From the UHGV virus genome UHGV-0106586: 61,990 nt of DNA; one strand, 5' to 3'. A model generated the notes under the pieces. That model did not search any database, was not told the origin of the DNA, and saw nothing but the letters and a program-made list of their open reading frames with translations. This stretch comes from a virus. Shown here in pieces: positions 993 through 61,673 of this stretch. Position 1 is the first letter of the stretch, and the number at the start of each line of letters is the position of its first letter. A program made the position numbers and the translations under genes.

Positions 993-1778
993 TTAGTTCT
1001 TTGCGTCTAAGAAGGTAACTTCCGGTGAAGAGAAGACCGTCTCGATATCCTCATCAGTTCTTGCATAGATATATGTATCTGCATCACTGCCAAATGTTAC
1101 TGCAATTCTGTGATTGCTCTTTGACAGGTGGGTAACTAGAGCGTTACTTAGAGACATCTTCTCAACCGGAGGGTTACTTTGATGTATCTTACCTTTTCTT
1201 CGTCTGAAGAGGGTAACTGTATCATCTGTGAACATTACTACACCTGCAAAGTATTCTGGTTCACAGTAGTTATTCCAACCTGAGCGTAACTTGTGGTACA
1301 TCTCTCCTTCGTAGACATACAGATAAACATCTACACTCTTCATCACCTGATTAATGATAACTGTGACGGCTTGAGGGTCTAGTCCACCGATACCTGCGCC
1401 AATCATAGGTAACCCGACTTTCTTCAACTGATTGACTTCACAGTATCTGTTAAGCTGTTTCAAAGATGACTCTAAAGCACTGTATCGGGCATCTTTACCA
1501 GTCTTAAGCTGAGTGTAAAGGTTAGCTATACGGCCTTGTTCTAAACGTGCTACAGAGAAATTGCCTAGTAAATTTTCACAGGGTTTGTGACCTATACCAC
1601 CTGCATACAGATAGACTTCTGTATCAGTCTCATATGCTTTTGGGTAAAGTTTAGAAATCTTGTCAGCGATACCTGCACCCATTAAATTCATACAGTTGCA
1701 ACCGTGACCAATAATATCAAACTTACCTTTATCAAATGCTGAGAAGATATCCCCATTGATGATTTTTACAATACCCAT
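993..1778 (-). CDS. macro-domain (ADP-ribose binding/processing-like) protein with ~130-aa C-terminal extension of unknown function
   Basis: N-terminal IIGHGCNCMNLMGAGIA and later LPMIGAGIGG resemble macro-domain glycine-rich ADP-ribose pocket motifs; recalled by eye, not searched. Confidence 0.5.
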   Translation of the reverse strand: MGIVKIINGDIFSAFDKGKFDIIGHGCNCMNLMGAGIADKISKLYPKAYETDTEVYLYAGGIGHKPCENLLGNFSVARLEQGRIANLYTQLKTGKDARYSALESSLKQLNRYCEVNQLKKVGLPMIGAGIGGLDPQAVTVIINQVMKSVDVYLYVYEGEMYHKLRSGWNNYCEPEYFAGVVMFTDDTVTLFRRRKGKIHQSNPPVEKMSLSNALVTHLSKSNHRIAVTFGSDADTYIYARTDEDIETVFSSPEVTFLDAKN

Positions 1779-5134: not shown

Positions 5135-6244
5135 TTAGATTTCACGTTTACGCTGAGAGATGAGTTCCCCAGCAGTGCCAACGATGACATGCAAAGCTTC
5201 AGTCTTGCCATCCCATGCTTTCAGCACTTTACGTTGATTGTCAACGATTGCTGCAACTTCATAACGTGATGAACGCATCTTCATATCGTTGTAATCAGTT
5301 GGAACAGATACAACATCTCGTGGATGGACACGAACCTTCAGAATTGTATCACCTGAGAAGCAACGAACATAATCCCAAGCACCAACGTGAAGACCTTGAG
5401 AGCAAGTCACGTTACGGTTATTATCAACCATCCAACGTGGCATTTCTACAATGTTACCCAAATCATTAGGTACTCTGTAGGTACGGGAATCAACTAGCTT
5501 GCCTTCATGAGTAGAGACTTTCTTCCATCCAATGATGTAACCTTCTTCATCAATTTCAACATCAAGGTGTGATACGAATCCCCAAAGTTGTTCTACAGAG
5601 TCTTTAGATGGGTTTTCCATCAGTTTTTCGAAGAACATTACAAGTCGTTCAAAACCTTTATCACCAGTCTTCATCATGTGAAGAATACGGTCAACCAGAG
5701 TAGAACGCATCTCAACAGCACCGTAGAATAACTTGTCACCTTTGATTGTGATAGCACCCTGAGTGAAGTTTTCGATAGACTTACGAATATTCATCAGTTC
5801 AAAGGCTTTCTTAAACTCACCTTTCACAACATGAACTACAATCTCTTGATAGTTCGGATGAGTAGACTCAACAATTTCAGATTCTGAACCGTAAGTCATA
5901 ATTACAGAGTCGCCAGTAATCATGTACTCAATCTTGTCATCTTTCTGCATAGCTTCATGCAGTTTATTTACCGGAGCTTTCTGTACAGACTCTTTAACGA
6001 CCTTTTCAACTGGTTTGTCAGCTTTCTTTTTAAAGGTCTTAGCAACTTGCTTCAAAGTCTTCTTAGCTGGTGTAGAAGTCGCCTTCTTATTTCCTTTTAA
6101 GGTTGCTTCATGACGCTCTACAGCACGACCAACTGAACGGGTTGAAGTATTAAATTTCTGTGCAATAGCTGTTTTAGTCAGCTTGCCCTCTTTAACCAGT
6201 TTGTAAATTTCTGCGTCAATCTGTGCTTTAGTTTTAGTAGTCAT
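5135..6244 (-). CDS. rIIB: rIIB-like protein
   Basis: C-terminal region ...VHPRDVVSVPTDYNDMKMRSSRYEV and GAITIKGDKLFYGAVEMRSTLVDRIL align with T4 rIIB as recalled. Confidence 0.8.
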   Translation of the reverse strand: MTTKTKAQIDAEIYKLVKEGKLTKTAIAQKFNTSTRSVGRAVERHEATLKGNKKATSTPAKKTLKQVAKTFKKKADKPVEKVVKESVQKAPVNKLHEAMQKDDKIEYMITGDSVIMTYGSESEIVESTHPNYQEIVVHVVKGEFKKAFELMNIRKSIENFTQGAITIKGDKLFYGAVEMRSTLVDRILHMMKTGDKGFERLVMFFEKLMENPSKDSVEQLWGFVSHLDVEIDEEGYIIGWKKVSTHEGKLVDSRTYRVPNDLGNIVEMPRWMVDNNRNVTCSQGLHVGAWDYVRCFSGDTILKVRVHPRDVVSVPTDYNDMKMRSSRYEVAAIVDNQRKVLKAWDGKTEALHVIVGTAGELISQRKREI

Positions 6245-6292
6245 CTTATTACTCTCTCTTGTTAGTTAATAAATCATTTTGTGAGTCTATTC

Positions 6293-6313
6293 TAAGGGGC
6301 TTCAAAGCCCCTT
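6293..6313 (-). terminator. small hairpin between rIIA and rIIB
   Basis: agggg-loop-cccct seen in sequence. Confidence 0.3.
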
Positions 6314-6323
6314 GTCAAACACT

Positions 6324-8690
6324 TTAATCGTAAATTGTAGTCCCTTCTGGAACACACTTCACATCAAAGCCCAAGAACTTACTCACTTCGATGGGTGACA
6401 CTTTATTCCAATCTAAATGAGAAAGCAAGAAGTTTTCTTGTTTTCTTTTTGAGAAGTAGTTTGTCACCTTAATAAACATACGGTCACCAGCTTTCTTAAT
6501 TTTCTTGTAAAGCTTTGTATCCTTACCAAGACACCTTTTCAAATCTTGCAATACACTAATAGTGTAAGTGTATGCAAATTGTGCAGCAACGTATTGGATT
6601 TTACCGAACATTGCCTCAACAGCATCTTCATTACCTTCTAGGAAGATAGTTTTGTTTGTGTCCCGTGAATAGCAATAACCATCAGAAATCTTCCTGTTAT
6701 TGAACGTAAAGTTTCTGGTAATAATCCAACAGCTTGTAAGGTTAAGGACACCACGCATACAGATGCGTGTCATATACCTGTTATGATTAATCCAATGAAC
6801 ATCAGTTAAGCTGTCGTTCAAGAGCTTCTCATCTACTTCAATCCAGTCTTCTGGTATCTTTTTCCAATTTGCTTTTCGGAAAACATAGACTGTCTTCCCT
6901 ATAACATTAGCAACTGACTTAGCTACATCTTCTGGAGATGAGCAAAAACATTTGCCATCAACTGTGTCACCAACTGCCTTAATGTAAAGCTGAGGTTCTT
7001 CAATTGTGTCTAAGTCTTCTGATACCTCTTTGTAGGAGGCTACACCTTCTGCTGGAACAGCTTTCCAGAGTTTTACAACACCTCTTACAGCTTCTTTACG
7101 CTGATAGTGATGTTCCTTATCAGACATCTTCACAATCTTTAACAAGCTTTTATCAAGTTTGTGTAGGTTGATTAAGTCATCTAGCTCTTTTTCAGTCGAG
7201 AATACAAACACAATACCATTATATCTGTGAAACAGACTTGACTCGTTGGCGTAGTCTCGACATGCACCACGCAAGATTTGATTGCGTCCTACAGTCTTTT
7301 CAGTTCCATTTTTATTGCGACGGTCATTAATCACGAACAAAAACTGTTCAATTTGGCTTTTACGCATTGCACCAAAGATATTGAACATACTTGCCTCTTG
7401 AGTGTAGGAAAGTGCTGTTGCACGAATCTTACTCTCTAAAGAGTTGAACTTGACATAAGCAACTGGATTATAAAGATAATCCACTTTAGGGATATTGTTC
7501 CCGTTCCTATCAACCTTGATATTACCTTTACCGTCACGTTCATAAATGACTGAGCCGTCTTCTGCGTAGATAATCCCACGACGGATGTTTAGTAATTCTA
7601 CTTCCAGAGAATCAAGCTTAACGCCTCCCCACTCTAGCTTTGGACACACAACATTAAACATCTCTCGTGAGTTCAAACGTAACTCAGCATAAGCCTGTGC
7701 AGCATCCATGAGTGTAGGTTGACTATTAACTTTCTTGATAACATCCTTTGTAATTGCTTCAGTTATCTTTTTAGTAGCCTCAATGATAACATTTTTTGTC
7801 GTGTCATTCATCTGCAATGCTTCACGAGAAGCTGCAATAGCAACTGAACCAATAGGCATGTAGATGTTTACAAGGTCTACGCTCCTACGGAAAAACTCTG
7901 GCAAGACTTTGAAGAAATCATCACCAAGTAATGCTTCCATGTTAACTGGATAGGCGATATTACCCATCACCACATTAAACTCTGTCCTGTTACCACTAGA
8001 ACGCCAGCTTTGCTTATGAATCATGGCATCATAAACACCCTCTTCACGGGCAATGACGTTCATATCTGCTAATACATCGTCATACTCGATATTACTTTCT
8101 GGTTTTACAGCAAAGTATGAATATACATTACCAGCCTCTTCAAAGAACTTTGAGATACGATGGTCAGCAACTGCTACACGTACAGCTAAACCATTAGGTT
8201 CTTTTGTTGGGTTAGTGGTTAGCTTAGTTACTTGAGGGATACCATTCTCAAGATAAACAGAGTACTTATTAACAACACCGTCAACATAGCTAGACACTGT
8301 GAATGACTGAGCAATTGCAAATGGTGATTTTGAGCCGATACCCATTGCACCAATGTAGTCATTAGAGTCATTCTTCGTAGAAGCCCCATAGTTTAGGTAC
8401 AAACTCATAACTTTATCATGAGTTAATCCAGTTCCAAAATCACGAACTTCAAAGTAAGGCTCAAAACGAGTAGGTAAATGCACATGGAACGGGATGTTCT
8501 CTTTTCCAGCCTCTTTCTGAGCATCTACTGCGTTACATGACAGTTCACGAATCACTGCCCTTTCTTTAAAGGTATATACACCAGAACTCAAAAGGCTGAA
8601 CATTTCAGGTGTCATTGTAATCTGTGCTTGAGACGTCTCTAAAGAAGTTGAACTCTTAATCACTTCTGCGTGGTCGTTTACCATGCGCAT
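6324..8690 (-). CDS. rIIA: rIIA-like protein (GHKL ATPase-like N-terminus)
   Basis: KERAVIRELSCNAVDAQ, RDFGTGL and NDYIGAMGIGSKSPF match T4 rIIA N-terminal motifs as recalled. Confidence 0.85.
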   Translation of the reverse strand: MRMVNDHAEVIKSSTSLETSQAQITMTPEMFSLLSSGVYTFKERAVIRELSCNAVDAQKEAGKENIPFHVHLPTRFEPYFEVRDFGTGLTHDKVMSLYLNYGASTKNDSNDYIGAMGIGSKSPFAIAQSFTVSSYVDGVVNKYSVYLENGIPQVTKLTTNPTKEPNGLAVRVAVADHRISKFFEEAGNVYSYFAVKPESNIEYDDVLADMNVIAREEGVYDAMIHKQSWRSSGNRTEFNVVMGNIAYPVNMEALLGDDFFKVLPEFFRRSVDLVNIYMPIGSVAIAASREALQMNDTTKNVIIEATKKITEAITKDVIKKVNSQPTLMDAAQAYAELRLNSREMFNVVCPKLEWGGVKLDSLEVELLNIRRGIIYAEDGSVIYERDGKGNIKVDRNGNNIPKVDYLYNPVAYVKFNSLESKIRATALSYTQEASMFNIFGAMRKSQIEQFLFVINDRRNKNGTEKTVGRNQILRGACRDYANESSLFHRYNGIVFVFSTEKELDDLINLHKLDKSLLKIVKMSDKEHHYQRKEAVRGVVKLWKAVPAEGVASYKEVSEDLDTIEEPQLYIKAVGDTVDGKCFCSSPEDVAKSVANVIGKTVYVFRKANWKKIPEDWIEVDEKLLNDSLTDVHWINHNRYMTRICMRGVLNLTSCWIITRNFTFNNRKISDGYCYSRDTNKTIFLEGNEDAVEAMFGKIQYVAAQFAYTYTISVLQDLKRCLGKDTKLYKKIKKAGDRMFIKVTNYFSKRKQENFLLSHLDWNKVSPIEVSKFLGFDVKCVPEGTTIYD

Positions 8691-9212: not shown

Positions 9213-9229
9213 AATCTTCTCCAGAAATT

Positions 9230-9252
9230 AAAAAGGCTCCCGTAGGAGCCTC
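9230..9252 (-). terminator. rho-independent terminator (ggctcc-cgta-ggagcc)
   Basis: Hairpin 9235-9250 with A-run upstream on plus strand. Confidence 0.5.
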
Positions 9253-9265
9253 TTATCATATACTT

Positions 9266-11047
9266 TTAAAGCTGCTTGTCAATATTATTTCGAATATCAC
9301 CAAGAGTTGTGTAGCCGAACTGCTCAGAGTCGCTAAAGACTAGACGTAAAGCACAAGCTGGATGTTCAAGTGCATCTGCAAAGCTCTGGAACCCATAGCC
9401 ATCTACAGCTTTCAGGTTTTCACCATCCCACATAGGTGCTACACCACCAAAAGCAGACTTCTTAACACCACTATCTGTTTTAGGGTCTTTTGCAAGCATA
9501 ATCTCTTTACCACCAATGCTTGCAAGAGTTGCTTTGACAGCAAATGCAAAGGTGTCACGAGTCATGTACTGGTAAGTGTAAGAACCTACACCAAACACTA
9601 CGTTAGAGCTTGCAAAACCCATTTCATACAAACGCTTCAGTATTTCGTTTGCACGTTCCAACGTGATAGAATCACCATAGATAAGGCCAATGTGCTCATC
9701 CAGTACCTTAAAACCTTTAGAGTTGATAGTCCCTCCAAAGATGTTATACAGGGTCTTAATAGCCCCATCAATCTCTGCTACAGGACGTGTTACAACGTTT
9801 GCAGAACCAACCATATAAGCATTTTTCAACATCACTGTATCAGCAACTTCAAAGTCTTCTCTGTCAACAACCATCTCGTAGCCTTCTGACAGTAGCCATC
9901 CAGCAATACCATAATTGATGTTTTCAAGCTTCATGTTCAGAACAGCATTCAACATTGTGTCGCTGGCTTCCAGCTTGCTTAAGTGTTCGTAATAAGCCTT
10001 TTTAGCACACTCTAAATGGATTGCTTTGTATCCTGTGACAATATGTACAGGGTCTCCAGAATCAGGACGAATTACCAGTTTGCCATCACGTCCCATAATC
10101 TCTTTACGGAGTTCTGGCAATATGACTGATACAGTTCTCCAGAAGTTATAAGTATCTGAAACAACACTTGCAATACCAGTTGGGTAAGTTTCTGTTAAGA
10201 AGCGACGGAAGGTTTGTAACTCACCTTTAAAACGTCTTTCATCTTCAATCAATTCATTACCACCTTCCCAAGCAATGTTTGCACACATTACAGAGTGTTC
10301 AGTGGCTGGTACAGAACTACCAATATCAGAGATTGGGTAGGACTGTCCATAGATGCGTTTAGCTGTATATACAGCAGGGAAGCTATCAGTCCCTTTAAAG
10401 CTGGTTAAGTGACCTACAGCATTAAATGCGTCATCAGTAAAGCCAGACATACCACGCATAGCAAAGTCATGGCACTGATAAGGTAAATGTAAGTCGTTGT
10501 CACAAGTAAGGTCAGCCCATTTCTTACAGATACGTTTGTAGTGCAATGCGATAGTTGCAATGGTACAAGCCTTCCAAATCTCAGCAGAGAAAGCATCTTC
10601 CAGATACCCCGCTACCCAATGGAAACCTGAAACAGTGTTCTGGAAGACAATCATTGGTACACGCATAGGGACAACTGTGCCTTCTTCTACAGCGTATACT
10701 TCAACTGGCAGATAACCTAAGTCGTGAAGTGCTTCCCAATGCTCTCGACCAATAGCATCTTTACCCAGAACACCGTTCATGACTTCTAAGATTTCATCAA
10801 TTGCTTCTTTTTTGTCACGTTCGAAGAAGGTGGCGTTCCAGTGGTCTATCAGGTAATCTTTAACAAAACGTTGAATACCAAAAGCCACTACACCGTCAAT
10901 TGCTAAGGGGCTGTTAAACCATTTGTCACTACGTGGTGTTAGGTTGAACATCAAGTACTCTGTTGCGCTAGGATACTGGTAGATGTGACCAGATTTGTAA
11001 GCATCTGCATTTAAACCTGCTGGTACTGCATAAAGTGATTTAGTCAT
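9266..11047 (-). CDS. nadV: nicotinamide phosphoribosyltransferase (NAMPT)-like enzyme, 593 aa, longer than typical ~470-500 aa NAMPT
   Basis: Full-length NAMPT-type fold judged from translation; adjacent to a PRPP-synthetase-like gene; exact substrate (PRPP vs ADPR-PP) not decidable by eye. Confidence 0.8.
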   Translation of the reverse strand: MTKSLYAVPAGLNADAYKSGHIYQYPSATEYLMFNLTPRSDKWFNSPLAIDGVVAFGIQRFVKDYLIDHWNATFFERDKKEAIDEILEVMNGVLGKDAIGREHWEALHDLGYLPVEVYAVEEGTVVPMRVPMIVFQNTVSGFHWVAGYLEDAFSAEIWKACTIATIALHYKRICKKWADLTCDNDLHLPYQCHDFAMRGMSGFTDDAFNAVGHLTSFKGTDSFPAVYTAKRIYGQSYPISDIGSSVPATEHSVMCANIAWEGGNELIEDERRFKGELQTFRRFLTETYPTGIASVVSDTYNFWRTVSVILPELRKEIMGRDGKLVIRPDSGDPVHIVTGYKAIHLECAKKAYYEHLSKLEASDTMLNAVLNMKLENINYGIAGWLLSEGYEMVVDREDFEVADTVMLKNAYMVGSANVVTRPVAEIDGAIKTLYNIFGGTINSKGFKVLDEHIGLIYGDSITLERANEILKRLYEMGFASSNVVFGVGSYTYQYMTRDTFAFAVKATLASIGGKEIMLAKDPKTDSGVKKSAFGGVAPMWDGENLKAVDGYGFQSFADALEHPACALRLVFSDSEQFGYTTLGDIRNNIDKQL

Positions 11048-11065
11048 CTTTTAATCTCTCTCGAA

Positions 11066-11085
11066 ATGGGGCTTGTAAGCCCCTA
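11066..11085 (-). terminator. hairpin between NAMPT-like and PRPP-synthetase-like genes
   Basis: ggggctt-gt-aagcccc inverted repeat. Confidence 0.3.
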
Positions 11086-11092
11086 TAAAGTT

Positions 11093-11974
11093 TTAATCAA
11101 GGTTTGCTACAGTAACTTGACCATAATGTGTTAAACCACGTTCTTTAGCTTCCCCTAAAGAGTTTGTAGTGTAGATGTGGTCAATGCCATTGTCAAGAAG
11201 GTTTTCAACACCTTTGGAAAAGATACCATGTGTTACATAGAGTTCTACACGTTTTGCACCTGCTTCACGAAGATGTTTAGCTGCTTCTATGAAGGTTCGA
11301 CCACCATCACAGATATCATCAAGAATCATAACAGTTTTATCTGTCAAATCAACATCATCAAGGATTCGCATACCAGTAATTTCACCAGTCTTAAGGTTAC
11401 GTACTTTAGACATTGTGATGTATGGCTTATCCACCTCTTTAGCAGTCTCTGCAATCTTCTTAGCAGCACCTGCATCTGGGGCTACTAAGTAATCAATCAG
11501 TGGGTCATTTGCATAGTGGACTGCAATTTCCTTTTGAGGAATACTCTGGAAGCAGTTAAACAGGTTATCTGGTACATAGCTGTGAGGGTCAACTGCACAG
11601 ACTGCATCAAAACCCATTGCATTAACCTGTTGTGCAAACACTTTCAAAGCTGCTGCATCACCTTTAAACATGTGACGGTCATAACGTGCATTTGGCAAAT
11701 AGTAAAAGATAATGGTCTTCATAGCAAACTTATGAGGTACTAAATCATCAATTGCCTCTTTAGCAAGTGCCACAGCAAACAATGTGTCTTTATCATAACC
11801 TTTTACAATCATAATCACATTGTTGATGGATGATGCTGCATAAGCAGTAAAATCAACAAACTCTGGCGAAAAGTGCCCACCAATCTCACCAGAAGGAAAT
11901 TGGATGATGTTAAACTCTTCTTCATGAGTTCCTTTAGTCGGTGAATGAACTGTAACACGGATAGATGTTTTCAT
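11093..11974 (-). CDS. ribose-phosphate pyrophosphokinase (PRPP synthetase)-like enzyme; start taken at ATG 11974
   Basis: YLPNARYDR (cf ARQDR), DPH (cf DLH), VAPDAGAAKK and VMILDDICDGGRT (PRPP/phosphoribosyl-binding loop) match the Prs family as recalled. Confidence 0.75.
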   Translation of the reverse strand: MKTSIRVTVHSPTKGTHEEEFNIIQFPSGEIGGHFSPEFVDFTAYAASSINNVIMIVKGYDKDTLFAVALAKEAIDDLVPHKFAMKTIIFYYLPNARYDRHMFKGDAAALKVFAQQVNAMGFDAVCAVDPHSYVPDNLFNCFQSIPQKEIAVHYANDPLIDYLVAPDAGAAKKIAETAKEVDKPYITMSKVRNLKTGEITGMRILDDVDLTDKTVMILDDICDGGRTFIEAAKHLREAGAKRVELYVTHGIFSKGVENLLDNGIDHIYTTNSLGEAKERGLTHYGQVTVANLD

Positions 11975-11984: not shown

Positions 11985-12290
11985 TTAGTCAAAAGTTACG
12001 TTTGTTACTGCCATTGCAGATTTGCATTTTGCAGGGTCTACAACGTGATAAAGTACACTACAGTTACCTGTGCTGTCTGGTACAGGCTTTACCCATTGAT
12101 GCTCTATAGTTGGCTCTCCTAAGTCTTTGTAAGAACCATCTGTAAAGTTGTTTACCATCTCAAGTGCAATTGGTTCTGGAACATGACCACGTATCATGTA
12201 CATCTCACAACCATTACCACCTTCACTGACTAAGGGTAAAATCTCCCACTTTTCTTTAGCCATTGTAAGTTGCCCTATAAACTGTCTCAA
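11985..12290 (-). CDS. hypothetical protein (101 aa)
   Basis: ORF in track. Confidence 0.4.
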   Translation of the reverse strand: MRQFIGQLTMAKEKWEILPLVSEGGNGCEMYMIRGHVPEPIALEMVNNFTDGSYKDLGEPTIEHQWVKPVPDSTGNCSVLYHVVDPAKCKSAMAVTNVTFD

Positions 12291-12771
12291 ACTTCAACAG
12301 GAGAGATATTGCCAAATCTGTATAGTTGTTATCAAGCACATCTGGCATATTATTTTTGATATATTTCTCTTGCTCTTCATAGGTCATCTTAGGGGTGCTT
12401 AAAAGATTATCCCTTTGCTTCTGGTTATCAAGTTTAGTCTGGATAAACCAGTTTGTGCAGTGGTGCTCACCACCCTTTGTAACAGGTTTGTGGTGACCTA
12501 ATGTGAAGGATTGACTACCTGTGTATCTGCAAAGTTTATTGAGAACTGTAATGGTGTTCTTCACAACAAAACATTCATACAAGTTATCTATAGTGTAGTG
12601 TGGGTAATAGCGGAATAGTGCTCTTTCACGAGTACTCTCACGATTCCAGAGAATCATGTGGTTTGAGTTAGAAGGGTCGTATTGGTGGGAGTCAATGAAC
12701 TCTTGACGTTCCTCAAAGCTGAGCCTTAACACTGACATTGCAGCCGAACGTTTCAGGTTTGACAGGTACAT
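12256..12771 (-). CDS. hypothetical protein (171 aa)
   Basis: ORF in track. Confidence 0.4.
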   Translation of the reverse strand: MYLSNLKRSAAMSVLRLSFEERQEFIDSHQYDPSNSNHMILWNRESTRERALFRYYPHYTIDNLYECFVVKNTITVLNKLCRYTGSQSFTLGHHKPVTKGGEHHCTNWFIQTKLDNQKQRDNLLSTPKMTYEEQEKYIKNNMPDVLDNNYTDLAISLLLKFETVYRATYNG

Positions 12772-12787
12772 ATTATCTCCAAAATAA

Positions 12788-12812
12788 AAAAGGGAACCTT
12801 TACAGTTCCCTA
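12788..12812 (-). terminator. hairpin terminator (gggaac...gttccc)
   Basis: Inverted repeat flanked by A/T runs. Confidence 0.4.
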
Positions 12813-12823
12813 ATCATATAGTC

Positions 12824-13135
12824 TTACTGTGAGATTTTCAACACTTTGAGGAAGCCTTCTTCACCAATGTTGCTTATAATGTAATTTGTAGGTTTAATAG
12901 AATGGTTTAGACATACAATCTTCTTGTCTTTCTTGTTGTAAGTTAGTTTAAGCTGTTCTAGCTCTTTACTACCATCAAGAGATTCATTGTACATCTTCAC
13001 AGCTTTCTTAAATGGGATGTGTTCACCACCAAAGGTTAGAAATCCCGTACCACAATAATGTGCGTTATGTTGCTCAACCATAAACTGACACAGAACTGCA
13101 ATCTGAATCTTACGAGTGTTATAAATCTTTTTCAT
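12824..13135 (-). CDS. hypothetical protein (103 aa)
   Basis: ORF in track. Confidence 0.4.
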   Translation of the reverse strand: MKKIYNTRKIQIAVLCQFMVEQHNAHYCGTGFLTFGGEHIPFKKAVKMYNESLDGSKELEQLKLTYNKKDKKIVCLNHSIKPTNYIISNIGEEGFLKVLKISQ

Positions 13136-13146
13136 GTTAACTACCC

Positions 13147-13404
13147 TTATTTGTTACGTTTACGGTTACGAGCTTTCTTAGCTGCACGTTTAATTGCTGC
13201 TGCACCAGTTGGTCGATGTGCTTGTTTTTTACCACCTTTTCCACGTCCGACGTGGATGTAAGGCTGCTTTTCAATTTGGCTTGCAAGAACTTGTGCAACT
13301 GCTGAAGCATCTACACCAACCTGCTTTCCAGTCATAGAAATGATTGCTGCTGCTTTTGCCAGTGCCTTCAAGAAGCCAGCCTTCATATTACCTAAAATTC
13401 CCAT
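13147..13404 (-). CDS. hypothetical protein with highly basic C-terminal tail
   Basis: ORF in track; C-terminus ...IKRAAKKARNRKRNK. Confidence 0.4.
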   Translation of the reverse strand: MGILGNMKAGFLKALAKAAAIISMTGKQVGVDASAVAQVLASQIEKQPYIHVGRGKGGKKQAHRPTGAAAIKRAAKKARNRKRNK

Positions 13405-45623: not shown

Positions 45624-51445
<5,822 letters not shown>

Positions 51446-51486
51446 TCATTTTTAACCAAGCCTTTGATATATAAGTATTTTCTCTG

Positions 51487-51556
51487 TTAAGCGTGAGCTA
51501 CGTAAAAAATAATTTTTGGTGGGTATATCTGTTCAGAAGATTTCACGTAGCATTCG
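51487..51556 (-). promoter_or_regulatory. conserved ~70-bp element upstream of gene 50615..51406 (copy 1 of 2)
   Basis: Shares blocks ttaagcgtg, tacgtaaa, gtgggtat, atttcacgtagca with 53631-53700. Confidence 0.4.
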
Positions 51557-51563
51557 ACTATTA

Positions 51564-53612
51564 TCAATCATCTTCTGGGAATGATGAACTTAATAGCGTA
51601 GCTTCTGCGTATTGGTCGTAGATATTACTGCTAAAGGTCATAAAGCTGGTTTCATCTGGTTTAATGGCAACTTCACCACCAAGTGAAACTTTCACAGGCT
51701 CCTGAATACGTTTGCTCAAAGCACTAATTTCATCTCTCAGGCTTTGGATATCCGTATTCGTTAATGCCGCATCTTGTCTCATGGTGATTAATTCTGGATG
51801 CTGGAAGTTAGCAAGATTCATAGCTGCACTATTAAACCAACCTTTCACATCGTCCATTGTAAATACTGGCTTAAGTCCAGACTCTTTAGCCAGCTCTGGT
51901 AATTTAGCTTGTGCTTCCATTCGTTCAGGTGTAGAGGCTAATCTTTCATAACCTGCATAGATAGCACTACCAGCTAATAGCATATTCCCAAGATTAAACC
52001 TTGATGGTTTCCCGTTCTTTCTATTCACGTTATCCGCTGTAGTATCAGCGACCTGACCTAATCTTGTGATAGCAGTCATAAGCCCGTAAATACTTCTGGT
52101 TACACCAACAACTTTATTTACAGCAATAACACCAGCCAAGACTTTTAAACTATTAATCAAGCCAGAACCTAAAGCATCAACAACTTTCTTTTGTTCATCG
52201 GTTAAACCACGATAAGCCAATGTCACCTCATCAAAGAACGCCCTTACCCTGTAACTAATATCAGTCAGGTTATCGACACCGTGTGACATAGAAGTCATGA
52301 GATTACCAAGACTTTCACCTAATGTTTTACCACTCCCACCAAGACTATTTAAAAGCGTTGTTAAGCTTCTTGTGAAATCTTGAAGACCATTTTCAGAACC
52401 TCTGAAGATATCCGTTAGTGAGTTGTTCCAAGTATTCTTTAAGTTCCCTAACATCGTCTGCGTAGAGTCCTGAATAGCTTTCCAGCCACCTCTGGAATTA
52501 ATCTGTGAACCAAGTTCTTTAGCAAACTTAGGGAGTGCATCAGAGGCTTTAACATCACCATTTTTCATCTTATCGAAAAGCTGTTTTTCAGTCAGACCTA
52601 AAGCCTTTGCAAATGCCTGAGTAGCACCCGGTAAAGCTTCAGATAGTTGCCCCTTAAGCTCTTCAGCCATCACCTGACCCTTAGAAGCCATCTGCGATAC
52701 TGCGGTTAATGCTCTTTGAATCTGCTCATCTGAACGACCCATTAAACGGGCATATCCAGTTAAGTTTTTAAATAATTCCTCTGAGCCTTCAAGACCCATC
52801 GTATTTTTTGCAGATGCACCAAATGAAGCAAACTGTGCTTGTGTTTCGGTTGTGTCCATACCAGTAATTTGAGTTAAATCTTGAATGAACTTTTTGACCT
52901 GTGTACTTTGGTCACCGAATACGAAATCAATACTTCTTTCCGATGATGCACGTTGAAGGCCAACTTCCATAATCTTCTGATAAGCGGATAGTACAGCCTG
53001 AAAGCTGATAAATGCACCTGCTGTTTTAACTGCTGCTGAACTCAAACTATCAAGACTATTAGCTGCTCTGTCACCGTTAATGCTGGTGGATGTATGACCT
53101 TTAGCTTTAGCAATTGCTTCTCTGACTGAAGCATTTAACTGAGCCAGCTTCTCATTGAATTTTGAATTATCCATCTGACCAGCTTTAGCAGATAGCCCGT
53201 AAAACTGAGATTTGATGTATTTCTGCAAAACAGGGTCAAAGCCCTTTAACTTGCTCATATTCGCTGAGTAAGCTGCTGTGATTGCTCTGTTTCCGCTAAT
53301 TCGTGGCTGTCTTGGTTGTTTTGGAGGATTAATAGCGTCATTAACCTGACTTGTGAAACGGAAAGCTTTTGTGCTTCTTGCTCTCTGTTCAATCTTGTCA
53401 AAAGCCTTATTAAACTTCCTTTCAAGTTGCCCTAAAGAACTTGTCAAATTACTATCAAGCTGTTTTGTATTAATCCTGAAACCTTTATTTAGGTTCTTTT
53501 CAATTCTTTGTGCTGACTGCAAAGCTGCCTTTTCAACTCTTTGCAAGCCTTTAACAACGTTTTCACTGAAGCCTAATTCAACGATAAAACTATCAACTGT
53601 AAATTTGCTCAT
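51564..53612 (-). CDS. tail tape measure protein
   Basis: 682 aa, alpha-helical low-complexity composition, TMP-like core QVMAEELKGQLSEALPGA, position upstream of baseplate genes. Confidence 0.7.
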   Translation of the reverse strand: MSKFTVDSFIVELGFSENVVKGLQRVEKAALQSAQRIEKNLNKGFRINTKQLDSNLTSSLGQLERKFNKAFDKIEQRARSTKAFRFTSQVNDAINPPKQPRQPRISGNRAITAAYSANMSKLKGFDPVLQKYIKSQFYGLSAKAGQMDNSKFNEKLAQLNASVREAIAKAKGHTSTSINGDRAANSLDSLSSAAVKTAGAFISFQAVLSAYQKIMEVGLQRASSERSIDFVFGDQSTQVKKFIQDLTQITGMDTTETQAQFASFGASAKNTMGLEGSEELFKNLTGYARLMGRSDEQIQRALTAVSQMASKGQVMAEELKGQLSEALPGATQAFAKALGLTEKQLFDKMKNGDVKASDALPKFAKELGSQINSRGGWKAIQDSTQTMLGNLKNTWNNSLTDIFRGSENGLQDFTRSLTTLLNSLGGSGKTLGESLGNLMTSMSHGVDNLTDISYRVRAFFDEVTLAYRGLTDEQKKVVDALGSGLINSLKVLAGVIAVNKVVGVTRSIYGLMTAITRLGQVADTTADNVNRKNGKPSRFNLGNMLLAGSAIYAGYERLASTPERMEAQAKLPELAKESGLKPVFTMDDVKGWFNSAAMNLANFQHPELITMRQDAALTNTDIQSLRDEISALSKRIQEPVKVSLGGEVAIKPDETSFMTFSSNIYDQYAEATLLSSSFPEDD

Positions 53613-53630
53613 TGTTCATATTTCACCTCT

Positions 53631-53700
53631 TTAAGCGTGTTGTACGTAAATTCTATTTTTCAGTGTGGGTATTAGCTTTACAGATTTCACGTAGCACACA
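53631..53700 (-). promoter_or_regulatory. conserved ~70-bp element upstream of the tape measure gene (copy 2 of 2)
   Basis: Same conserved blocks as 51487-51556 in the same order and spacing. Confidence 0.4.
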
Positions 53701-53770
53701 TACAAAAAAGGGAGAAACTACCGATGTCACTCGATAATCTCTCCCGTAGATTTTTACCCAACCAATCTTT

Positions 53771-53974
53771 TTACCCAACCAGATAATAATTGCCATCTTC
53801 ACCAACAATCTGACAATCACTTGGTAATTTATCAAGACACCATTTAGCGATTCTTCTGATTCTGTTATTTTGCTTAGAGGTGGATGATTTGATTCGTTTT
53901 GGTTTGTTGGGTTGTTCTTTCAGTCGTTCACTAATTGCCTTGATGAGTTCATAGCGTTCTGTTAAATCAATCAT
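53771..53974 (-). CDS. hypothetical protein (67 aa), N-terminus paralogous to the next ORF
   Basis: MIDLTERYELIK vs MNDLTERDKRIK. Confidence 0.3.
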   Translation of the reverse strand: MIDLTERYELIKAISERLKEQPNKPKRIKSSTSKQNNRIRRIAKWCLDKLPSDCQIVGEDGNYYLVG

Positions 53975-53999
53975 TCACCACCTCCTTTTTAATTCGATT

Positions 54000-54308
54000 T
54001 TAATCTAAGTAGTGTATACACTCGACACCGCGTTCATTCTTTTGAATTTCATAACGTAGTGAAAGACCAGTTTGATAATACACAGTATCAAGCTTATTTA
54101 TCTTATCCTTGAGTTCGATAAGAAGTCGCGTTAAATCATCCCGACCATCACACTTTAGTTCGGCAAGAGGCTTTTCGTCCATACGACCAATAAGATATTC
54201 AGTGACCTCCTGAATATCACCAAGAGTCGTTTTAATTTCATTGAACCTATCTTCAAAAGGTTCCATCACCCCTTTAATTCTTTTATCACGTTCTGTTAAA
54301 TCATTCAT
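54000..54308 (-). CDS. hypothetical protein (102 aa)
   Basis: ORF in track. Confidence 0.4.
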   Translation of the reverse strand: MNDLTERDKRIKGVMEPFEDRFNEIKTTLGDIQEVTEYLIGRMDEKPLAELKCDGRDDLTRLLIELKDKINKLDTVYYQTGLSLRYEIQKNERGVECIHYLD

Positions 54309-54316
54309 TAATCACC

Positions 54317-55027
54317 TCAAATAGCCTTTGCATATTTCTGAGAAATCTTCATTAACTGCTCAATATCGGCTTGCATAGCAATCTTCTTCTGTGATTCATA
54401 TTCACTAACAAGTTCTTTCATAGCCTGAAGCTCTCTTGAGAGATACAACTTAACATTTTCAAGTTGCTTGTTACGTGATGCCAAGATGTTCTGTCTAGCA
54501 AGTTCACAGAGTTCTTCATCGCTCTTATTAGTCATATAAATAAATTGACCAGCACCCCTTGAAGCTTTAACCATCTTCACAATTCGATATCCGTCAGGAA
54601 GATTATTAATCACGTCTGGGATATTCTCAGGAAAAGTACCAAAACCATCATTATCTTCGTATTGGTAATAGACAAATGGTTTCTGTGACAATTCATCCTG
54701 AATCTCAAATTCTGACGGCTCAATAGCTGATTGCATCAGGGTAACTTTGCTGTAAGCGTCATCAAGTTTAATACGCTGTGCTTTTAACTGTGGGTAATAT
54801 TCACGCTCAAGATTAAATAGTGCTTCACTTTTGCAGATATCTGGCATTTCTTGAGGCTCAGGAGACACAAAGGTAATTTCCTTTGGTGACATCTTTAACG
54901 ATTGCTCAAGCTTAATTCTTTCATCGTGTTCTTTACGCTGAATAGTGATAGCTGGATGTTCAGTCTGTGGCGACCAGTCACCGAAGCTATCAACCTTTCT
55001 GCCATTAATGTAAATATCATTTGTCAT
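54317..55027 (-). CDS. hypothetical protein (236 aa)
   Basis: ORF with ATG and GAGGAAAT RBS. Confidence 0.45.
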   Translation of the reverse strand: MTNDIYINGRKVDSFGDWSPQTEHPAITIQRKEHDERIKLEQSLKMSPKEITFVSPEPQEMPDICKSEALFNLEREYYPQLKAQRIKLDDAYSKVTLMQSAIEPSEFEIQDELSQKPFVYYQYEDNDGFGTFPENIPDVINNLPDGYRIVKMVKASRGAGQFIYMTNKSDEELCELARQNILASRNKQLENVKLYLSRELQAMKELVSEYESQKKIAMQADIEQLMKISQKYAKAI

Positions 55028-55553
55028 TATAATTTCCTCTAAGTGTGATTATTTCTTAATAGAGCACCTTCAACGCCAATACACTTAGAAGATGACTTAA
55101 CGATTTATTAAAGATGCTCTATAAAGAAAAGCCCTAAACATAGGTTCATCCTCATCTGTGAAGGGCTTTGGAGGTTTGCTTTAACGTTAACGAAGTTTCA
55201 GGAAAAAGTTCTGTTTGAAAACTCTTAAAGAAACGCCCTAACTCATGATTAGGGCAAAGCTGTAAAGGGTTCAATGAATGAATGATTAAGCACTTTTTGA
55301 GATAGCCTATCTAGTGTGGGCTAAATAGGCCATGACGAAAAGCATTGCACCTTTCCAACTCAGAATATAGTTATCATCGATGTAGAGACGATTAATATTT
55401 TAATTCAAGGAGAATTGCTCTCCCTATATATACAATTATGTCATGCTCAAGGTTATTTGTCAACAGCTTTTTAACAGATTGGTAACATTTATACTTTAAT
55501 AGATGCACCTGCAATCATACCAATCAATACAAAACAGATAATCACCAATTCCA

Positions 55554-55877
55554 TTAATGCACCACCTTCGAATCCGTCACCAAAATATTGTCAGCGTACA
55601 AAATTGCTATAGCTGCCTTGAGATATCTTTCAGGGCTAATACTGTATTTGTTCGTTTGCTCGATAACCAATCTTTTCATGTTGCTGTCTATAATTGGTAG
55701 CATCATTCGAGGCTCGTTAAACTCCACCGACTGAATAAAGTCTTCAATTACTTCTGAGTTATCAGCCATTAGCCTTAACAGCCTGTCAAAGTCAATGCTA
55801 ACACCTACATCAGTGAAAGCCTGAATCATCATAGCGGTGTCGTTATCAACGAAAATCTGTAATGGGTAATTGTTCAT
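55554..55877 (-). CDS. hypothetical protein (107 aa from ATG 55877)
   Basis: ATG with AAAGGAGA RBS. Confidence 0.45.
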   Translation of the reverse strand: MNNYPLQIFVDNDTAMMIQAFTDVGVSIDFDRLLRLMADNSEVIEDFIQSVEFNEPRMMLPIIDSNMKRLVIEQTNKYSISPERYLKAAIAILYADNILVTDSKVVH

Positions 55878-56032
55878 TTTTAAAATCTCCTTTTTACCAG
55901 ACCTCCTCAATCGCTCTGTAACGAGCTAAACAGTCTTTTTCAGGGGTAGCCTGTACAGTGGTATTACCCACCCTAAAATAAGATAGTTTTTTGCGTTAGA
56001 ATGCGATTGAGAGCGCCTGAGAAGCTATTTTT

Positions 56033-56320
56033 CTAATTTCTCTTAAAGTCTCGGACTTGCATAAGATTTTTTGGTCTGGTATCGGCTCTGTTACCATTTC
56101 GATGGATAATTTGCTTGTTGGATTGATAGCCATGATAAAGGAACCAGACAACATATTTCACGTAGAAAGTATATCGGCCTATATTAAATGTTTTGTTGCC
56201 GTAGTCGTCGGTATTTATCGTGACTGACTCTCCATCAGACCAGCACAGGGAATCACTGGATTCATCATAGATAAGGTGTTCTGTAAAATATCGTCTAACA
56301 TCTTCATGCCAAGGTTTCAT
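56033..56320 (-). CDS. truncated/degenerate HNH-like protein (N-terminal HNH region only, no AP2 domain)
   Basis: LIYDESSDSLCW...FYVKYVVWFLYHGYQ...IIHRNGNRADTRPKNL parallels the N-terminal halves of the intact HNH-AP2 proteins but with substituted catalytic positions. Confidence 0.4.
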   Translation of the reverse strand: MKPWHEDVRRYFTEHLIYDESSDSLCWSDGESVTINTDDYGNKTFNIGRYTFYVKYVVWFLYHGYQSNKQIIHRNGNRADTRPKNLMQVRDFKRN

Positions 56321-56532
56321 AAAACCTCCTCACCCCAATAACCTAATTCAATCTTGTGACGCTCAAACCATTCCGGTTTAACTGCTGTTTTCAGTACTTC
56401 ATTTGGGCCAATGGCTTTAATGAAAATATCTTTTGAGTTATGGATGTCACCGAATCCGTTTCCCTTAATCAGGAGGTCGGAGATGTGGCGAATCATTTTA
56501 TCCGTGTGGTATTCAAAGGTAACGCATAGCAT
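56317..56532 (-). CDS. hypothetical protein (71 aa)
   Basis: ORF in track. Confidence 0.35.
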   Translation of the reverse strand: MLCVTFEYHTDKMIRHISDLLIKGNGFGDIHNSKDIFIKAIGPNEVLKTAVKPEWFERHKIELGYWGEEVL

Positions 56533-56810
56533 TAAACCTCCATCGCTAACTTGTGAATCTTAAGACTCAATAGACGGGCAATATCAATCTTAAAGCCGTT
56601 AAGTGCCTTCAAAGTATCTAAAGCGTCCTGAGTAATTCGGATGTGCTTACGACCTTTAGAGACTGGATATTTAAGTAAATCCGACTCAGTGACCTCTTTA
56701 GCAATTGCAAGCTGCATTACAGTTTGATGAGGCAAGTTAGTAGCTCGTTTAATTCTGGTAAGCTCGTTAAAAGCTTCCTCTGAAATACGGGTTAATGTGT
56801 GTTTATTCAT
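56532..56810 (-). CDS. hypothetical protein (92 aa)
   Basis: ORF in track. Confidence 0.4.
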   Translation of the reverse strand: MNKHTLTRISEEAFNELTRIKRATNLPHQTVMQLAIAKEVTESDLLKYPVSKGRKHIRITQDALDTLKALNGFKIDIARLLSLKIHKLAMEV

Positions 56811-57368
56811 TTAAAATTCCTCTGTAACTAAATACGGGTCAAACTCGAAATCTGGTTGCTCGTTTTCCATTGGCTCAATATTCCCAACGGCAATATGATG
56901 TTCAACAATACCAATTAGCTTTGCACACATTACAGCAAGCAAAGCGCAATATTTATCGCTTGGTAATTCATGGCTAAGTCTGGTTGCTTGTCTTTGAAGA
57001 TAATTTGTCACGCTGGCTGCGTTAATTTCGTCAAGATTCTTTAGAAGATAAAATAGTTTTTTGTTGTATTTCGGGTGGCCTTCACTTCTACAGAATCCAA
57101 TGAAAATATCATCAAGCTTACTTGGTAGTTGCTCGTAAGAATCAAAGTTAGCCAGATAATTTTTAATAGTGTTCTGGGTGCTCTTTCTGGTTGGCATAAA
57201 TCTGTCTCGTGGCGTAATGCTACGAATTACTTCGTCAATGCCTTTGCGTTCTTTCTTGGTGAGCTTGGGTAGTTCGTAGCTGGTTGGGTTGTTTGTGTAA
57301 GCGTAGGAGTTGTGCTTGTTACGTTGTCTCGATGCCTGAAGCATCGCTCTAAATTCTGCGTCTCTCAT
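56811..57368 (-). CDS. hypothetical protein (185 aa)
   Basis: ORF in track; first gene of a minus-strand operon. Confidence 0.45.
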   Translation of the reverse strand: MRDAEFRAMLQASRQRNKHNSYAYTNNPTSYELPKLTKKERKGIDEVIRSITPRDRFMPTRKSTQNTIKNYLANFDSYEQLPSKLDDIFIGFCRSEGHPKYNKKLFYLLKNLDEINAASVTNYLQRQATRLSHELPSDKYCALLAVMCAKLIGIVEHHIAVGNIEPMENEQPDFEFDPYLVTEEF

Positions 57369-57419
57369 TCATGTTCCGACCCTCATAAGATGTTATTATT
57401 CTGTTAACTTATATATACA

Positions 57420-57448
57420 ATACTAGCATTTTCAAAGACTAATGTCAA
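57420..57448 (-). promoter_or_regulatory. sigma70-like promoter for minus-strand operon 57368..55554 (-35 TTGACA, 17-bp spacer, -10 TAGTAT)
   Basis: Read from reverse complement of 57420-57448. Confidence 0.35.
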
Positions 57449-57473
57449 GTATTTTTTAACATTTTATTAACAT

Positions 57474-57486
57474 CTGTGGTATAATG
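57474..57486 (+). promoter_or_regulatory. extended -10 promoter-like element (TGGTATAAT), plus strand
   Basis: TGnTATAAT seen at 57478-57486; no good -35. Confidence 0.35.
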
Positions 57487-61659: not shown

Positions 61660-61673
61660 TTGAGATTCTATCG

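What the first reader, a model, noticed from the sequence alone, without database searches (positions are those of the whole stretch)
9266..11974. Adjacent NAMPT-like and PRPP-synthetase-like genes: candidate NAD+ reconstitution (NARP1-type) counter-defence module
A 593-aa NAMPT-family protein sits beside a Prs-family protein carrying a PRPP-type binding loop (VMILDDICDGGRT). No NMN adenylyltransferase (HxGH motif) was recognised in the window. Such a pair could be classical salvage, but it is also the architecture described for phage NAD+ reconstitution pathway 1 (Prs-like ADPR pyrophosphokinase plus NAMPT-like transferase), which rebuilds NAD+ after depletion by NADase-based defences (Thoeris, DSR, SIR2/TIR-type systems). 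The NAMPT-like protein is ~100 aa longer than typical NAMPT, suggesting an insertion.
Basis: partly seen in the sequence, partly recalled or inferred. Interest (0 to 1): 0.7.

Follow-up and report, generated by a model that had tools for sequence, protein, structure and literature searches.

The report
Known phage NAD+ rebuilding operon (NARP1)

Summary
Window 9266-11047 (-) encodes a 593-aa NAMPT-family protein and 11093-11974 (-) a 293-aa Prs-family protein, 45 nt apart, followed by a terminator-like hairpin. The window is a metagenomic Felixounavirus contig. NARP1 was discovered in the Felixounavirus Bas63 (genes 79-80). The window proteins are 81% (Adps) and 98% (Namat) identical to those, without gaps and with the same spacer. 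The Namat carries the published ADPR-PP selectivity clamp (SCH motif GSYTYQYMTRD; SCL K42-W43) and the full catalytic core. Its model matches the Namat crystal structure best (target TM 0.95). No NMN adenylyltransferase was found in the window. The extra ~100 aa are real. They comprise an ~88-aa insertion found only in Ounavirinae, which is confidently folded but has no recognisable fold relative, plus a ~15-aa insertion. Two side observations may deserve more attention. A Macro-domain protein at 993-1778 is homologous to the phosphatase-position gene inside a NARP1-AP-type operon of another phage. A ~10-kb E. coli integrative element with its own tape-measure and Dit-like genes sits at 51.4-62 kb in excised (attP) topology.

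The parts
11093..11974 (-). adps: Prs-family ADP-ribose pyrophosphokinase (293 aa)
   Evidence: ORF. Pfam, NCBIfam and PHROG matches. 81% identical, without gaps, to Bas63 gp79. It reaches only the subfamily-level Prs model and falls far below every Prs equivalog cutoff.
9266..11047 (-). namat: NAMPT-family nicotinamide ADP-ribose transferase (593 aa)
   Evidence: ORF. 98% identical, without gaps, to Bas63 gp80. Best PDB sequence hits are the Namat structures 9W5W/9W5X at about 1e-127, against about 1e-41 for mammalian NAMPT. AF2 model has pLDDT 94, and its best fold match is Namat 9W5X with target TM 0.95.
9554..9586 (-). Namat SCH clamp motif GSYTYQYMTRD (aa 488-498)
   Evidence: Fits the published Namat-only consensus GSX-phi-X-phi-X-phi-TRD with aromatic X residues. 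Mapped. Present in all 48 aligned homologues.
10898..10933 (-). Namat SCL loop RSDKWFNSPLAI (aa 39-50) with K42-W43, the Bas63-type adenine-stacking pair
   Evidence: The paper states that when Lys or Tyr is the third loop residue, the fourth residue does the stacking, as in Bas63. The window loop is identical to Bas63. Mapping.
10295..10297 (-). Namat His251, in the conserved ATEHS motif and invariant in 48 homologues; inferred equivalent of the catalytic histidine of Nampt
   Evidence: The paper states that the catalytic histidine is conserved between Namat and Nampt; assigning it to this position is my inference.
9767..10030 (-). Ounavirinae-specific insertion domain in Namat (aa 340-427)
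10214..10276 (-). second, smaller length-variable segment of Namat (aa 258-278, about 15 aa extra)
11399..11407 (-). Adps K190-V-R192, corresponding to the catalytic K-x-R of the Prs flexible loop
   Evidence: The HMMER alignment to Prs structure 4TWB pairs K with K and R with R. MAFFT with E. coli Prs places the Lys one column off but keeps R192 invariant. Mutation of the equivalent Lys (K162A) in SpbetaL1 Adps abolishes activity.
11294..11323 (-). Adps ribose-phosphate loop LDDICDGGRT (aa 218-227)
   Evidence: Aligns with E. coli Prs VDDMIDTGGT. The window, Bas63 and BBMuffin proteins have D-G-G where Prs has D-T-G-G.
11068..11083 (-). small GC-rich hairpin GGGGCTT-AC-AAGCCCC in the 45-nt adps-namat spacer
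   Evidence: Read directly from the sequence. Function not tested.
9231..9254 (-). intrinsic-terminator-like hairpin 12 nt after the namat stop codon (10-bp stem plus T run)
   Evidence: sequence confirmed.
12791..12841 (-). terminator-like hairpin (12791-12811) overlapped by a promoter-like site (12813-12841); possible start of a four-gene unit gp77-like, gp78-like, adps, namat
   Evidence: These are consensus matches only.
993..1778 (-). unlinked Macro-domain protein (261 aa), a candidate Adpp-type accessory; not shown to belong to the pathway
   Evidence: Pfam Macro scores 32.1 bits against a cutoff of 22. Nearest solved relatives are OARD1/TARG1. aa 3-154 align over the full length of Vibrio phage BBMuffin gp178, which lies between Adps-like and Namat-like genes.

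Best explanation
This is an intact NARP1 (NAD+ reconstitution pathway 1) operon of a Felixounavirus. When a host NADase-type defence (SIR2-HerA/Nezha, DSR, Thoeris type I, SEFIR and similar) cleaves NAD+ into ADP-ribose and nicotinamide, the Prs-like enzyme Adps (11093-11974) transfers pyrophosphate from ATP to ADP-ribose, giving ADPR-pyrophosphate. The NAMPT-like enzyme Namat (9266-11047) then joins ADPR-PP to nicotinamide, giving NAD+ directly, so no NMN adenylyltransferase is needed. What is shown here: gene structure, orthology to the validated Bas63 operon, conservation of the catalytic and specificity residues, and the fold. What is inferred from published work on orthologues and homologues: the two enzyme reactions and the counter-defence phenotype.
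For: 1) Orthology to the type example. Namat is 579/593 identical and Adps 236/293 identical to Bas63 gp80 and gp79, both without gaps, with the same 45-nt spacer and the same neighbours (NrdG upstream, rIIA downstream). 2) In Bas63, deleting genes 79-80 sensitises the phage to SIR2-HerA and lowers NAD+. ADPR-PP appears only with the wild-type phage plus the defence system, and the effect persists in a host lacking pncC and nadR. PhageMaP independently found a 10^4-10^6-fold plating loss on Sir2-HerA for each single deletion, restored by complementation. 3) Namat specificity signature. The SCH motif GSYTYQYMTRD and the SCL pair K42-W43 are present. The catalytic-core residues D15, Y17, F195, R198, D221, R327 and D329, plus the invariant ATEHS histidine H251, are all conserved against the SpbetaL1 crystal-structure residues. 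4) The best PDB hits by sequence (about 1e-127) and by fold (target TM 0.95) are the Namat structures 9W5W/9W5X, ahead of true Nampt enzymes. 5) Adps keeps the Prs catalytic motifs (ARxDR, DPH, PDxG, K190-x-R192, DD...G..T) but fails all Prs equivalog cutoffs, for example 93 bits against 297. All 57 differences from gp79 lie outside aa 181-210 and 241-270. 6) No NMNAT in the window. 7) The operon has no match in 5,426 complete E. coli genomes but matches 255 phage records.
Against: Nothing was measured for this particular sequence; activity and phenotype are transferred from orthologues. The biochemistry and crystal structures come from SpbetaL1 enzymes, which are only about 48% identical for Namat, and not from the Felixounavirus proteins. 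The Adps N-terminal roughly 60 residues differ substantially from the tested Bas63 allele (25 of 60 positions). [quoted passage not shown] Only about 51 kb of an approximately 87-kb phage genome is on the contig, so the rest could not be searched for an NMNAT. The complete Bas63 genome has none annotated.
Confidence: 0.93

Rival explanations
1. Classical salvage. The Prs-like enzyme makes PRPP from ribose-5-phosphate, the NAMPT-like enzyme makes NMN from PRPP and nicotinamide, and a host NMN adenylyltransferase or deamidase route (NadR, PncC/NadD) completes NAD+ synthesis.
For: Pfam, NCBIfam and GenBank annotations name the proteins this way. SpbetaL1 Namat can make NMN from PRPP in vitro.
Against: Bas63 still overcomes SIR2-HerA in a host lacking pncC and nadR, and ADPR-PP is detected in infected cells. 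With both substrates offered, the SpbetaL1 enzyme made only NAD+. The window protein carries the adenine clamp, which the paper reports as absent from Nampt. The Prs-like protein is far below every Prs equivalog cutoff.
Confidence: 0.04
2. NARP2-type pathway, that is, a true Nampt working with a phage-encoded bifunctional NMNAT/Nudix enzyme, as in Vibrio phage KVP40.
For: A NAMPT-family gene is present.
Against: No NMNAT signature or domain was found in the window, and none is annotated in the complete Bas63 genome. NARP2 has no Prs-like partner. The discovery paper found no phage encoding both pathways.
Confidence: 0.01
3. The operon is NARP1 by descent, but this allele pair is functionally altered, for example through the diverged Adps N-terminal domain or the Namat insertion, and no longer reconstitutes NAD+ efficiently.
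For: The first 60 residues of Adps are only about 58% identical to the tested Bas63 protein, and DNA identity there drops to 63-78%.
Against: Both ORFs are full length, with all catalytic and clamp residues intact. This Adps allele is the common one in the genus: 128 phage records at 95-99% protein identity. The Namat insertion is identical in type to that of the functional Bas63 protein.
Confidence: 0.03

Closest known systems
NARP1 operon of Escherichia phage JohannRWettstein (Bas63), genes 79 (adps) and 80 (namat); Osterman et al., bioRxiv 10.1101/2024.02.11.579819
   Same: Same phage genus, gene order, gene lengths (293 and 593 aa), 45-nt spacer, flanking genes, clamp residues and Namat insertion domain. 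98% (Namat) and 81% (Adps) amino-acid identity.
   Different: The 5' third of adps is a different allele (63-78% nucleotide identity). The window lacks the small gene bas63_0081 immediately downstream of namat.
SpbetaL1 Adps and Namat (biochemically characterised; Namat crystal structures 9W5W and 9W5X; Lan et al., NAR 2026, PMC12774641)
   Same: Same catalytic core and same SCH clamp motif. Best sequence and fold match in the PDB.
   Different: About 48% identity. The SCL uses K42-W43 in place of R40. The window protein has about 102 extra residues in two insertions that SpbetaL1 lacks.
NARP1-AP (Adps, Macro-domain phosphatase Adpp, Namat; Vibrio phage Gary; bioRxiv 10.64898/2026.01.28.702374)
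   Same: Adps and Namat are homologous. The window also encodes a Macro-domain protein homologous to the operon-embedded Macro gene of Vibrio phage BBMuffin (28% identity, E 4e-15).
   Different: The Macro gene here is not in the operon. It lies about 7.5 kb downstream and carries an extra roughly 105-aa C-terminal extension. No Macro or RyR domain occurs among the five genes upstream (NrdG and its upstream neighbour also scanned) or the three genes downstream of NARP1.
NARP2 (KVP40 NadV Nampt plus NatV NMNAT/Nudix)
   Same: NAMPT-family enzyme and the same overall purpose, restoring NAD+.
   Different: NARP2 uses PRPP and needs an NMNAT, has no Prs-like partner and lacks the clamp. No NMNAT is present here.
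Cellular Prs (for example E. coli b1207) and NAMPT/NadV (human, Xanthomonas, Haemophilus ducreyi HdNadV 9KE8)
   Same: Same folds and catalytic residues.
   Different: 26% identity to E. coli Prs, with D-G-G in place of D-T-G-G in the ribose-phosphate loop. Namat clamp motif in place of the Nampt sequence.

Membership tests
NARP1 (Adps + Namat) | Adjacent, co-oriented Prs-family and NAMPT-family genes in a phage genome | tested here: met
   ORFs 45 nt apart on the minus strand. Family matches. Felixounavirus backbone. No copy in 5,426 E. coli genomes.
NARP1 (Adps + Namat) | [quoted passage not shown] | tested here: met
   GSYTYQYMTRD at aa 488-498. Y490 and Y494 correspond to SpbetaL1 F392 and Y396.
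NARP1 (Adps + Namat) | Namat SCL loop supplying an adenine-stacking residue (third residue R/K/Y; the fourth residue stacks when the third is K or Y) | tested here: met
   S40-D41-K42-W43, identical to Bas63 Namat, which the paper cites as the Lys-type example. This was tested by sequence only; stacking geometry was not examined.
NARP1 (Adps + Namat) | Nampt-like catalytic core (nicotinamide and ribose-phosphate contacts plus the catalytic His) | tested here: met
   D15, Y17, F195, R198, D221, A248, R327, D329, G458, D459, G488, S489 and R497 are conserved. The exceptions are S190 to A196 and A362 to S460. H251 lies in the invariant ATEHS motif.
NARP1 (Adps + Namat) | Adps: Prs fold with the flexible-loop catalytic Lys (SpbetaL1 K162, equivalent to B. 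subtilis Prs K197) | tested here: met
   K190-V-R192 aligns with the K-x-R of Prs in the HMMER alignment. MAFFT shifts the Lys by one column. The SpbetaL1 Adps sequence itself was not available for comparison.
NARP1 (Adps + Namat) | Adps belongs to the phage clade separate from cellular Prs | tested here: inconclusive
   No tree was built. Proxies agree: 81% identity to Bas63 gp79, PHROG 619 at 331 bits, and all Prs equivalog models far below cutoff.
NARP1 (Adps + Namat) | Enzyme activities: ATP + ADPR gives ADPR-PP; ADPR-PP + nicotinamide gives NAD+ | not testable with these tools
   Shown for the SpbetaL1, Paenibacillus and DyoEdafos enzymes, and ADPR-PP was detected in Bas63-infected cells. 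Not measured for this sequence.
NARP1 (Adps + Namat) | Counter-defence phenotype against NAD+-depleting systems | not testable with these tools
   Shown for the Bas63 orthologues by two independent groups.
Classical salvage / NARP2 | An NMN adenylyltransferase (GxFxPxHxGH nucleotidyltransferase) encoded by the phage | tested here: not met
   No such motif in six frames. No such domain in the 30 ORFs scanned. About 36 kb of the phage genome is not on the contig, and Bas63 has none annotated.
Classical salvage / NARP2 | Prs at equivalog level (a true ribose-phosphate diphosphokinase) | tested here: not met
   Best equivalog-level scores are 62-106 bits against cutoffs of 296-536. Only the broad TIGR01251 subfamily model passes, at 123.9 against 113.
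NARP1-AP (with Adpp phosphatase) | Macro-domain gene within the NARP1 operon (within two genes, as defined in the preprint) | tested here: not met
   The five genes upstream (NrdG and its upstream neighbour were also scanned) and the three genes downstream have no Macro or RyR domain.
NARP1-AP (with Adpp phosphatase) | An Adpp-type (Poa1p-like) Macro protein encoded by the phage | tested here: inconclusive
   Macro protein at 993-1778, homologous to the operon-embedded BBMuffin gp178. However, the same family occurs in 2,850 phage records, including T4-like phages. The yeast Poa1p structure 6LFQ was not among the PDB sequence hits. Phosphatase activity is untested.

The most novel reading that the evidence does not exclude
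Felixounavirus-type NARP1 may have more than two components. The unlinked Macro-domain protein at 993-1778 (orthologue of Bas63 gp95) could be an Adpp-type ADPR-1''-phosphate phosphatase acting in trans. These phages would then run a split NARP1-AP pathway and also escape aRES-type defence. The published survey would have missed this because it scanned only two genes on either side of NARP1. In addition, the 88-aa orphan-fold domain inserted in Namat, found only in Ounavirinae, could be a functional add-on for regulation or partner docking and not a neutral loop expansion.
Probability: 0.25. Interest if true: 0.45.

Novelty: already known. Interest (0 to 1): 0.13.

Why it matters
NARP1 lets phages defeat a whole class of NAD+-depleting immune systems, so recognising it matters for predicting phage host range and for choosing therapeutic phages. 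Felixounaviruses are candidates for biocontrol. This locus adds no new biology: it is one more copy of the published type example, which nearly all of about 250 sequenced relatives also carry. The useful by-products are three. First, sequence rules that separate Namat from Nampt (SCH and SCL motifs) and, tentatively, Adps from Prs (D-G-G against D-T-G-G, from three sequences only); current database annotations still mislabel both genes. Second, a testable hint that an unlinked Macro phosphatase may extend the pathway in this genus. Third, an undescribed lineage-specific domain inserted in Namat.

Full report
OBSERVATION. The window holds two co-oriented minus-strand ORFs exactly where reported. 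ORF 9266..11047 encodes 593 aa. ORF 11093..11974, from its ATG, encodes 293 aa. The first matches Pfam NAPRTase and NAMPT_N, NCBIfam PRK09198 (466 bits, cutoff 405) and PHROG 448. The second matches Pribosyltran and Pribosyl_synth, TIGR01251 and PHROG 619. The quoted loop VMILDDICDGGRT is present.

WHERE IT COMES FROM. The 2.7-kb region matches 255 phage records, nearly all Felixounavirus-type phages of Escherichia, Salmonella, Shigella and Citrobacter; the best is 97.3% identical. The window is collinear with Escherichia phage JohannRWettstein (Bas63, MZ501086) from position 1 to about 51.4 kb. An exact-sequence look-up showed that the window is a complete metagenome contig, ENA ERZ1304109 NODE_478, 61,990 nt. 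The NARP1 region has no match in 5,426 complete E. coli genomes.

WHAT IT IS. NARP1 was discovered in Bas63 genes 79-80. Deleting the operon sensitised the phage to SIR2-HerA and lowered NAD+. ADPR-pyrophosphate appeared only with the wild-type phage plus the defence system. The effect persisted in a host lacking pncC and nadR, which excludes the classical NMN route. The reactions ATP + ADPR giving ADPR-PP (Adps) and ADPR-PP + nicotinamide giving NAD+ (Namat) were shown with the SpbetaL1 homologues. PhageMaP independently found 10^4-10^6-fold plating defects on Sir2-HerA for each single deletion, rescued by complementation. Bas63 gp79 and gp80 are 293 and 593 aa with a 45-nt spacer, the same as here. 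Identity is 236/293 (81%) for Adps and 579/593 (98%) for Namat, both without gaps. The locus is therefore an orthologue of the type example.

SPECIFICITY RESIDUES. The Namat structural paper (PMC12774641) defines a selectivity clamp. Its SCH element has the consensus GSX-phi-X-phi-X-phi-TRD, reported as absent from Nampt. Its SCL loop supplies a stacking residue. I transcribed the 9W5X sequence from the HMMER alignment. All 20 residue identities given in the paper were reproduced, which validates the numbering. The window protein has SCH = GSYTYQYMTRD (aa 488-498) and SCL = ...S40-D41-K42-W43..., the Lys-type loop described for Bas63. It also has the core residues D15, Y17, F195, R198, D221, A248, R327 and D329, and H251 in the invariant ATEHS motif. 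All 48 homologues I aligned carry the SCH signature. By sequence, the best PDB hits are the Namat structures 9W5W/9W5X (about 1e-127), then H. ducreyi NadV (1e-104), then Xanthomonas and mammalian NAMPT (1e-51 to 1e-41). An AlphaFold2 model (mean pLDDT 94, pTM 0.92) matches Namat 9W5X best, with target TM 0.95.

ADPS. The Prs-like protein keeps the Prs catalytic motifs: N-A-R-Y-D-R-H, V-D-P-H, A-P-D-A-G, K190-V-R192 and L-D-D-I-C-D-G-G-R-T. It scores far below every Prs equivalog cutoff and passes only the broad subfamily model. Aligned with E. coli Prs and with the Adps-like gp177 of Vibrio phage BBMuffin, the three phage proteins have D-G-G where Prs has D-T-G-G in the ribose-5-phosphate loop. 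With only three sequences this is a lead and not a rule. The 57 differences from Bas63 gp79 cluster in residues 1-60 and 121-180; there are none in 181-210 or 241-270. DNA identity falls to 63-78% over the 5' third of the gene, against 93-97% across namat, which indicates an allele exchange. The window allele is the commoner one in the genus, with 128 records at 95-99% protein identity.

NO NMNAT AND NO OPERON-LINKED ACCESSORY. No GxFxPxHxGH-type motif occurs in any frame. The two loose [HT]xGH hits lie in unrelated proteins. Pfam scans of 30 ORFs found no nucleotidyltransferase. The known NARP1 add-ons are the Macro phosphatase Adpp and the RyR-domain glycosidase RyDEP. Neither is found among the five genes upstream (NrdG and its upstream neighbour were also scanned) or the three genes downstream.

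OPERON SIGNALS. A 10-bp-stem terminator-like hairpin follows namat by 12 nt (9231-9254). Another hairpin (12791-12811), overlapped by a promoter-like site, precedes the gp77-like gene. The transcription unit may therefore be gp77-like, gp78-like, adps, namat. These are consensus matches only. In Bas63, gp77 counters the Ec67 retron and rIIA/rIIB counter QatABCD, so the neighbourhood is rich in counter-defence genes.

COMPARISON AND NOVELTY. The locus meets every sequence-testable defining feature of NARP1. It fails those of classical salvage and NARP2 (no NMNAT, no equivalog-level Prs) and the operon-linkage criterion of NARP1-AP. It is a further copy of a published system in the very genus where that system was found, so the novelty is 'already known' and the interest is low.

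SIDE OBSERVATION 1: Macro protein. ORF 993..1778 (-), the orthologue of Bas63 gp95 'putative phosphatase', is a Macro-domain protein (Pfam 32.1 bits against a cutoff of 22). Its nearest solved relatives are OARD1/TARG1 and Appr-1''-p-processing macrodomains. Residues 3-154 align over the full length of BBMuffin gp178 (28% identity, E 4e-15). That gene sits between Adps-like gp177 and Namat-like gp179, the NARP1-AP layout. The NARP1-AP survey scanned only two genes on either side of NARP1, so this genus would have been scored as lacking the phosphatase. The family is also common in phages not known to me to carry NARP1; it occurs in 2,850 records, including T4-like phages. The link is therefore only a hypothesis.

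SIDE OBSERVATION 2: a mobile element on the contig. From about 51.4 kb to the contig end the sequence is not Felixounavirus backbone. It is 98.7% identical to an approximately 11.4-kb element present in at least 121 complete E. coli chromosomes, with partial matches in 550 genomes. In strain MS10495 the element splits a DUF72 gene between yecD and yecN. Its gene order there is a serine recombinase, a 'baseplate' (Dit-like) gene, a 682-aa tape-measure gene, seven orphan ORFs interspersed with an HNH gene, and an AP2 gene. In the window the element is circularly permuted, with a precise attP junction. The element-side arm of attR is joined to the element-side arm of attL through the shared core TGATTTT at 60325-60331. 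The recombinase has a 264-nt in-frame deletion in its catalytic domain. This same variant occurs on 10 contigs, including an 11-kb human-gut contig that is almost a full circle of the element. The element's Dit-like gene shares a roughly 570-nt 5' part that is 90-98% identical to the phage gene, but has an unrelated 3' end. The window contains two reciprocal hybrid copies, at 50615-51427 and from 61674 to the contig end. This fits a single-crossover co-integrate of the excised element with the phage. It also fits an assembler walking through the shared segment. The contig ends inside the repeat, so I cannot decide between them. I found no description of such an element in the searchable literature.

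Noticed in passing
window 51383-61990 (attP core 60325-60331; recombinase 60400-61659; tape-measure 51564-53612; Dit-like copies 50615-51427 and 61674-61990): About 10 kb that is not Felixounavirus backbone but is 98.7% identical to an approximately 11.4-kb integrative element found in at least 121 complete E. coli chromosomes, where it splits a DUF72 gene between yecD and yecN. It carries a serine recombinase, its own tape-measure gene, a Dit-like gene whose 5' 570 nt are 90-98% identical to the phage gene, an HNH gene, an AP2 gene and seven orphan ORFs. In the window it is in excised, circularly permuted topology with a precise attP and an internally deleted recombinase, flanked by reciprocal hybrid Dit-like copies. 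It is either a satellite-like element co-integrated into the phage by homologous recombination or an assembly join through the shared segment. No description was found in the literature searched.
   Followed up: partly
window 993-1778 (-): A Macro-domain protein (261 aa; orthologue of Bas63 gp95 'putative phosphatase') about 7.5 kb downstream of NARP1 on the same strand. It is homologous over its whole Macro domain to the gene embedded between Adps and Namat in Vibrio phage BBMuffin (NARP1-AP layout), and it has an extra roughly 105-aa C-terminal extension. It may be an unlinked Adpp, which the published survey of two genes on either side would have missed.
   Followed up: partly
window 11650-11974 (5' third of adps) and 12764-13186 (gp76-like gene): Local drops to about 62-78% nucleotide identity against Bas63, inside a region otherwise 87-99% identical. 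These are mosaic allele exchanges. One covers the N-terminal domain of Adps, while its catalytic C-terminal half is unchanged.
   Followed up: partly
window 9213-9265: The small gene bas63_0081 (345 nt), which lies directly downstream of namat in Bas63, is precisely absent here.
   Followed up: no
window 11985-12771 and 5135-8690: NARP1 sits among other genes reported by PhageMaP as counter-defence genes in Bas63. The gp77-like gene (12256-12771) counters the Ec67 retron and may be co-transcribed with adps and namat. The rIIA (6324-8690) and rIIB (5135-6244) homologues counter QatABCD.
   Followed up: no
[not shown]
   Followed up: no
proteins P0073, P0075, P0097, P0104 and others: Proteins of about 496 aa carrying the Namat SCH signature, annotated 'nicotinate phosphoribosyltransferase', are abundant in Klebsiella, Cronobacter, Kosakonia and Phytobacter chromosomes; one cluster has 1,229 members. 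This agrees with the report of bacterial NARP1 homologues.
   Followed up: no
window 11068-11083 (-): A GC-rich hairpin, GGGGCTT-AC-AAGCCCC, lies in the 45-nt spacer between adps and namat. Both genes are preceded by a GAGAGA-type ribosome-binding sequence.
   Followed up: no
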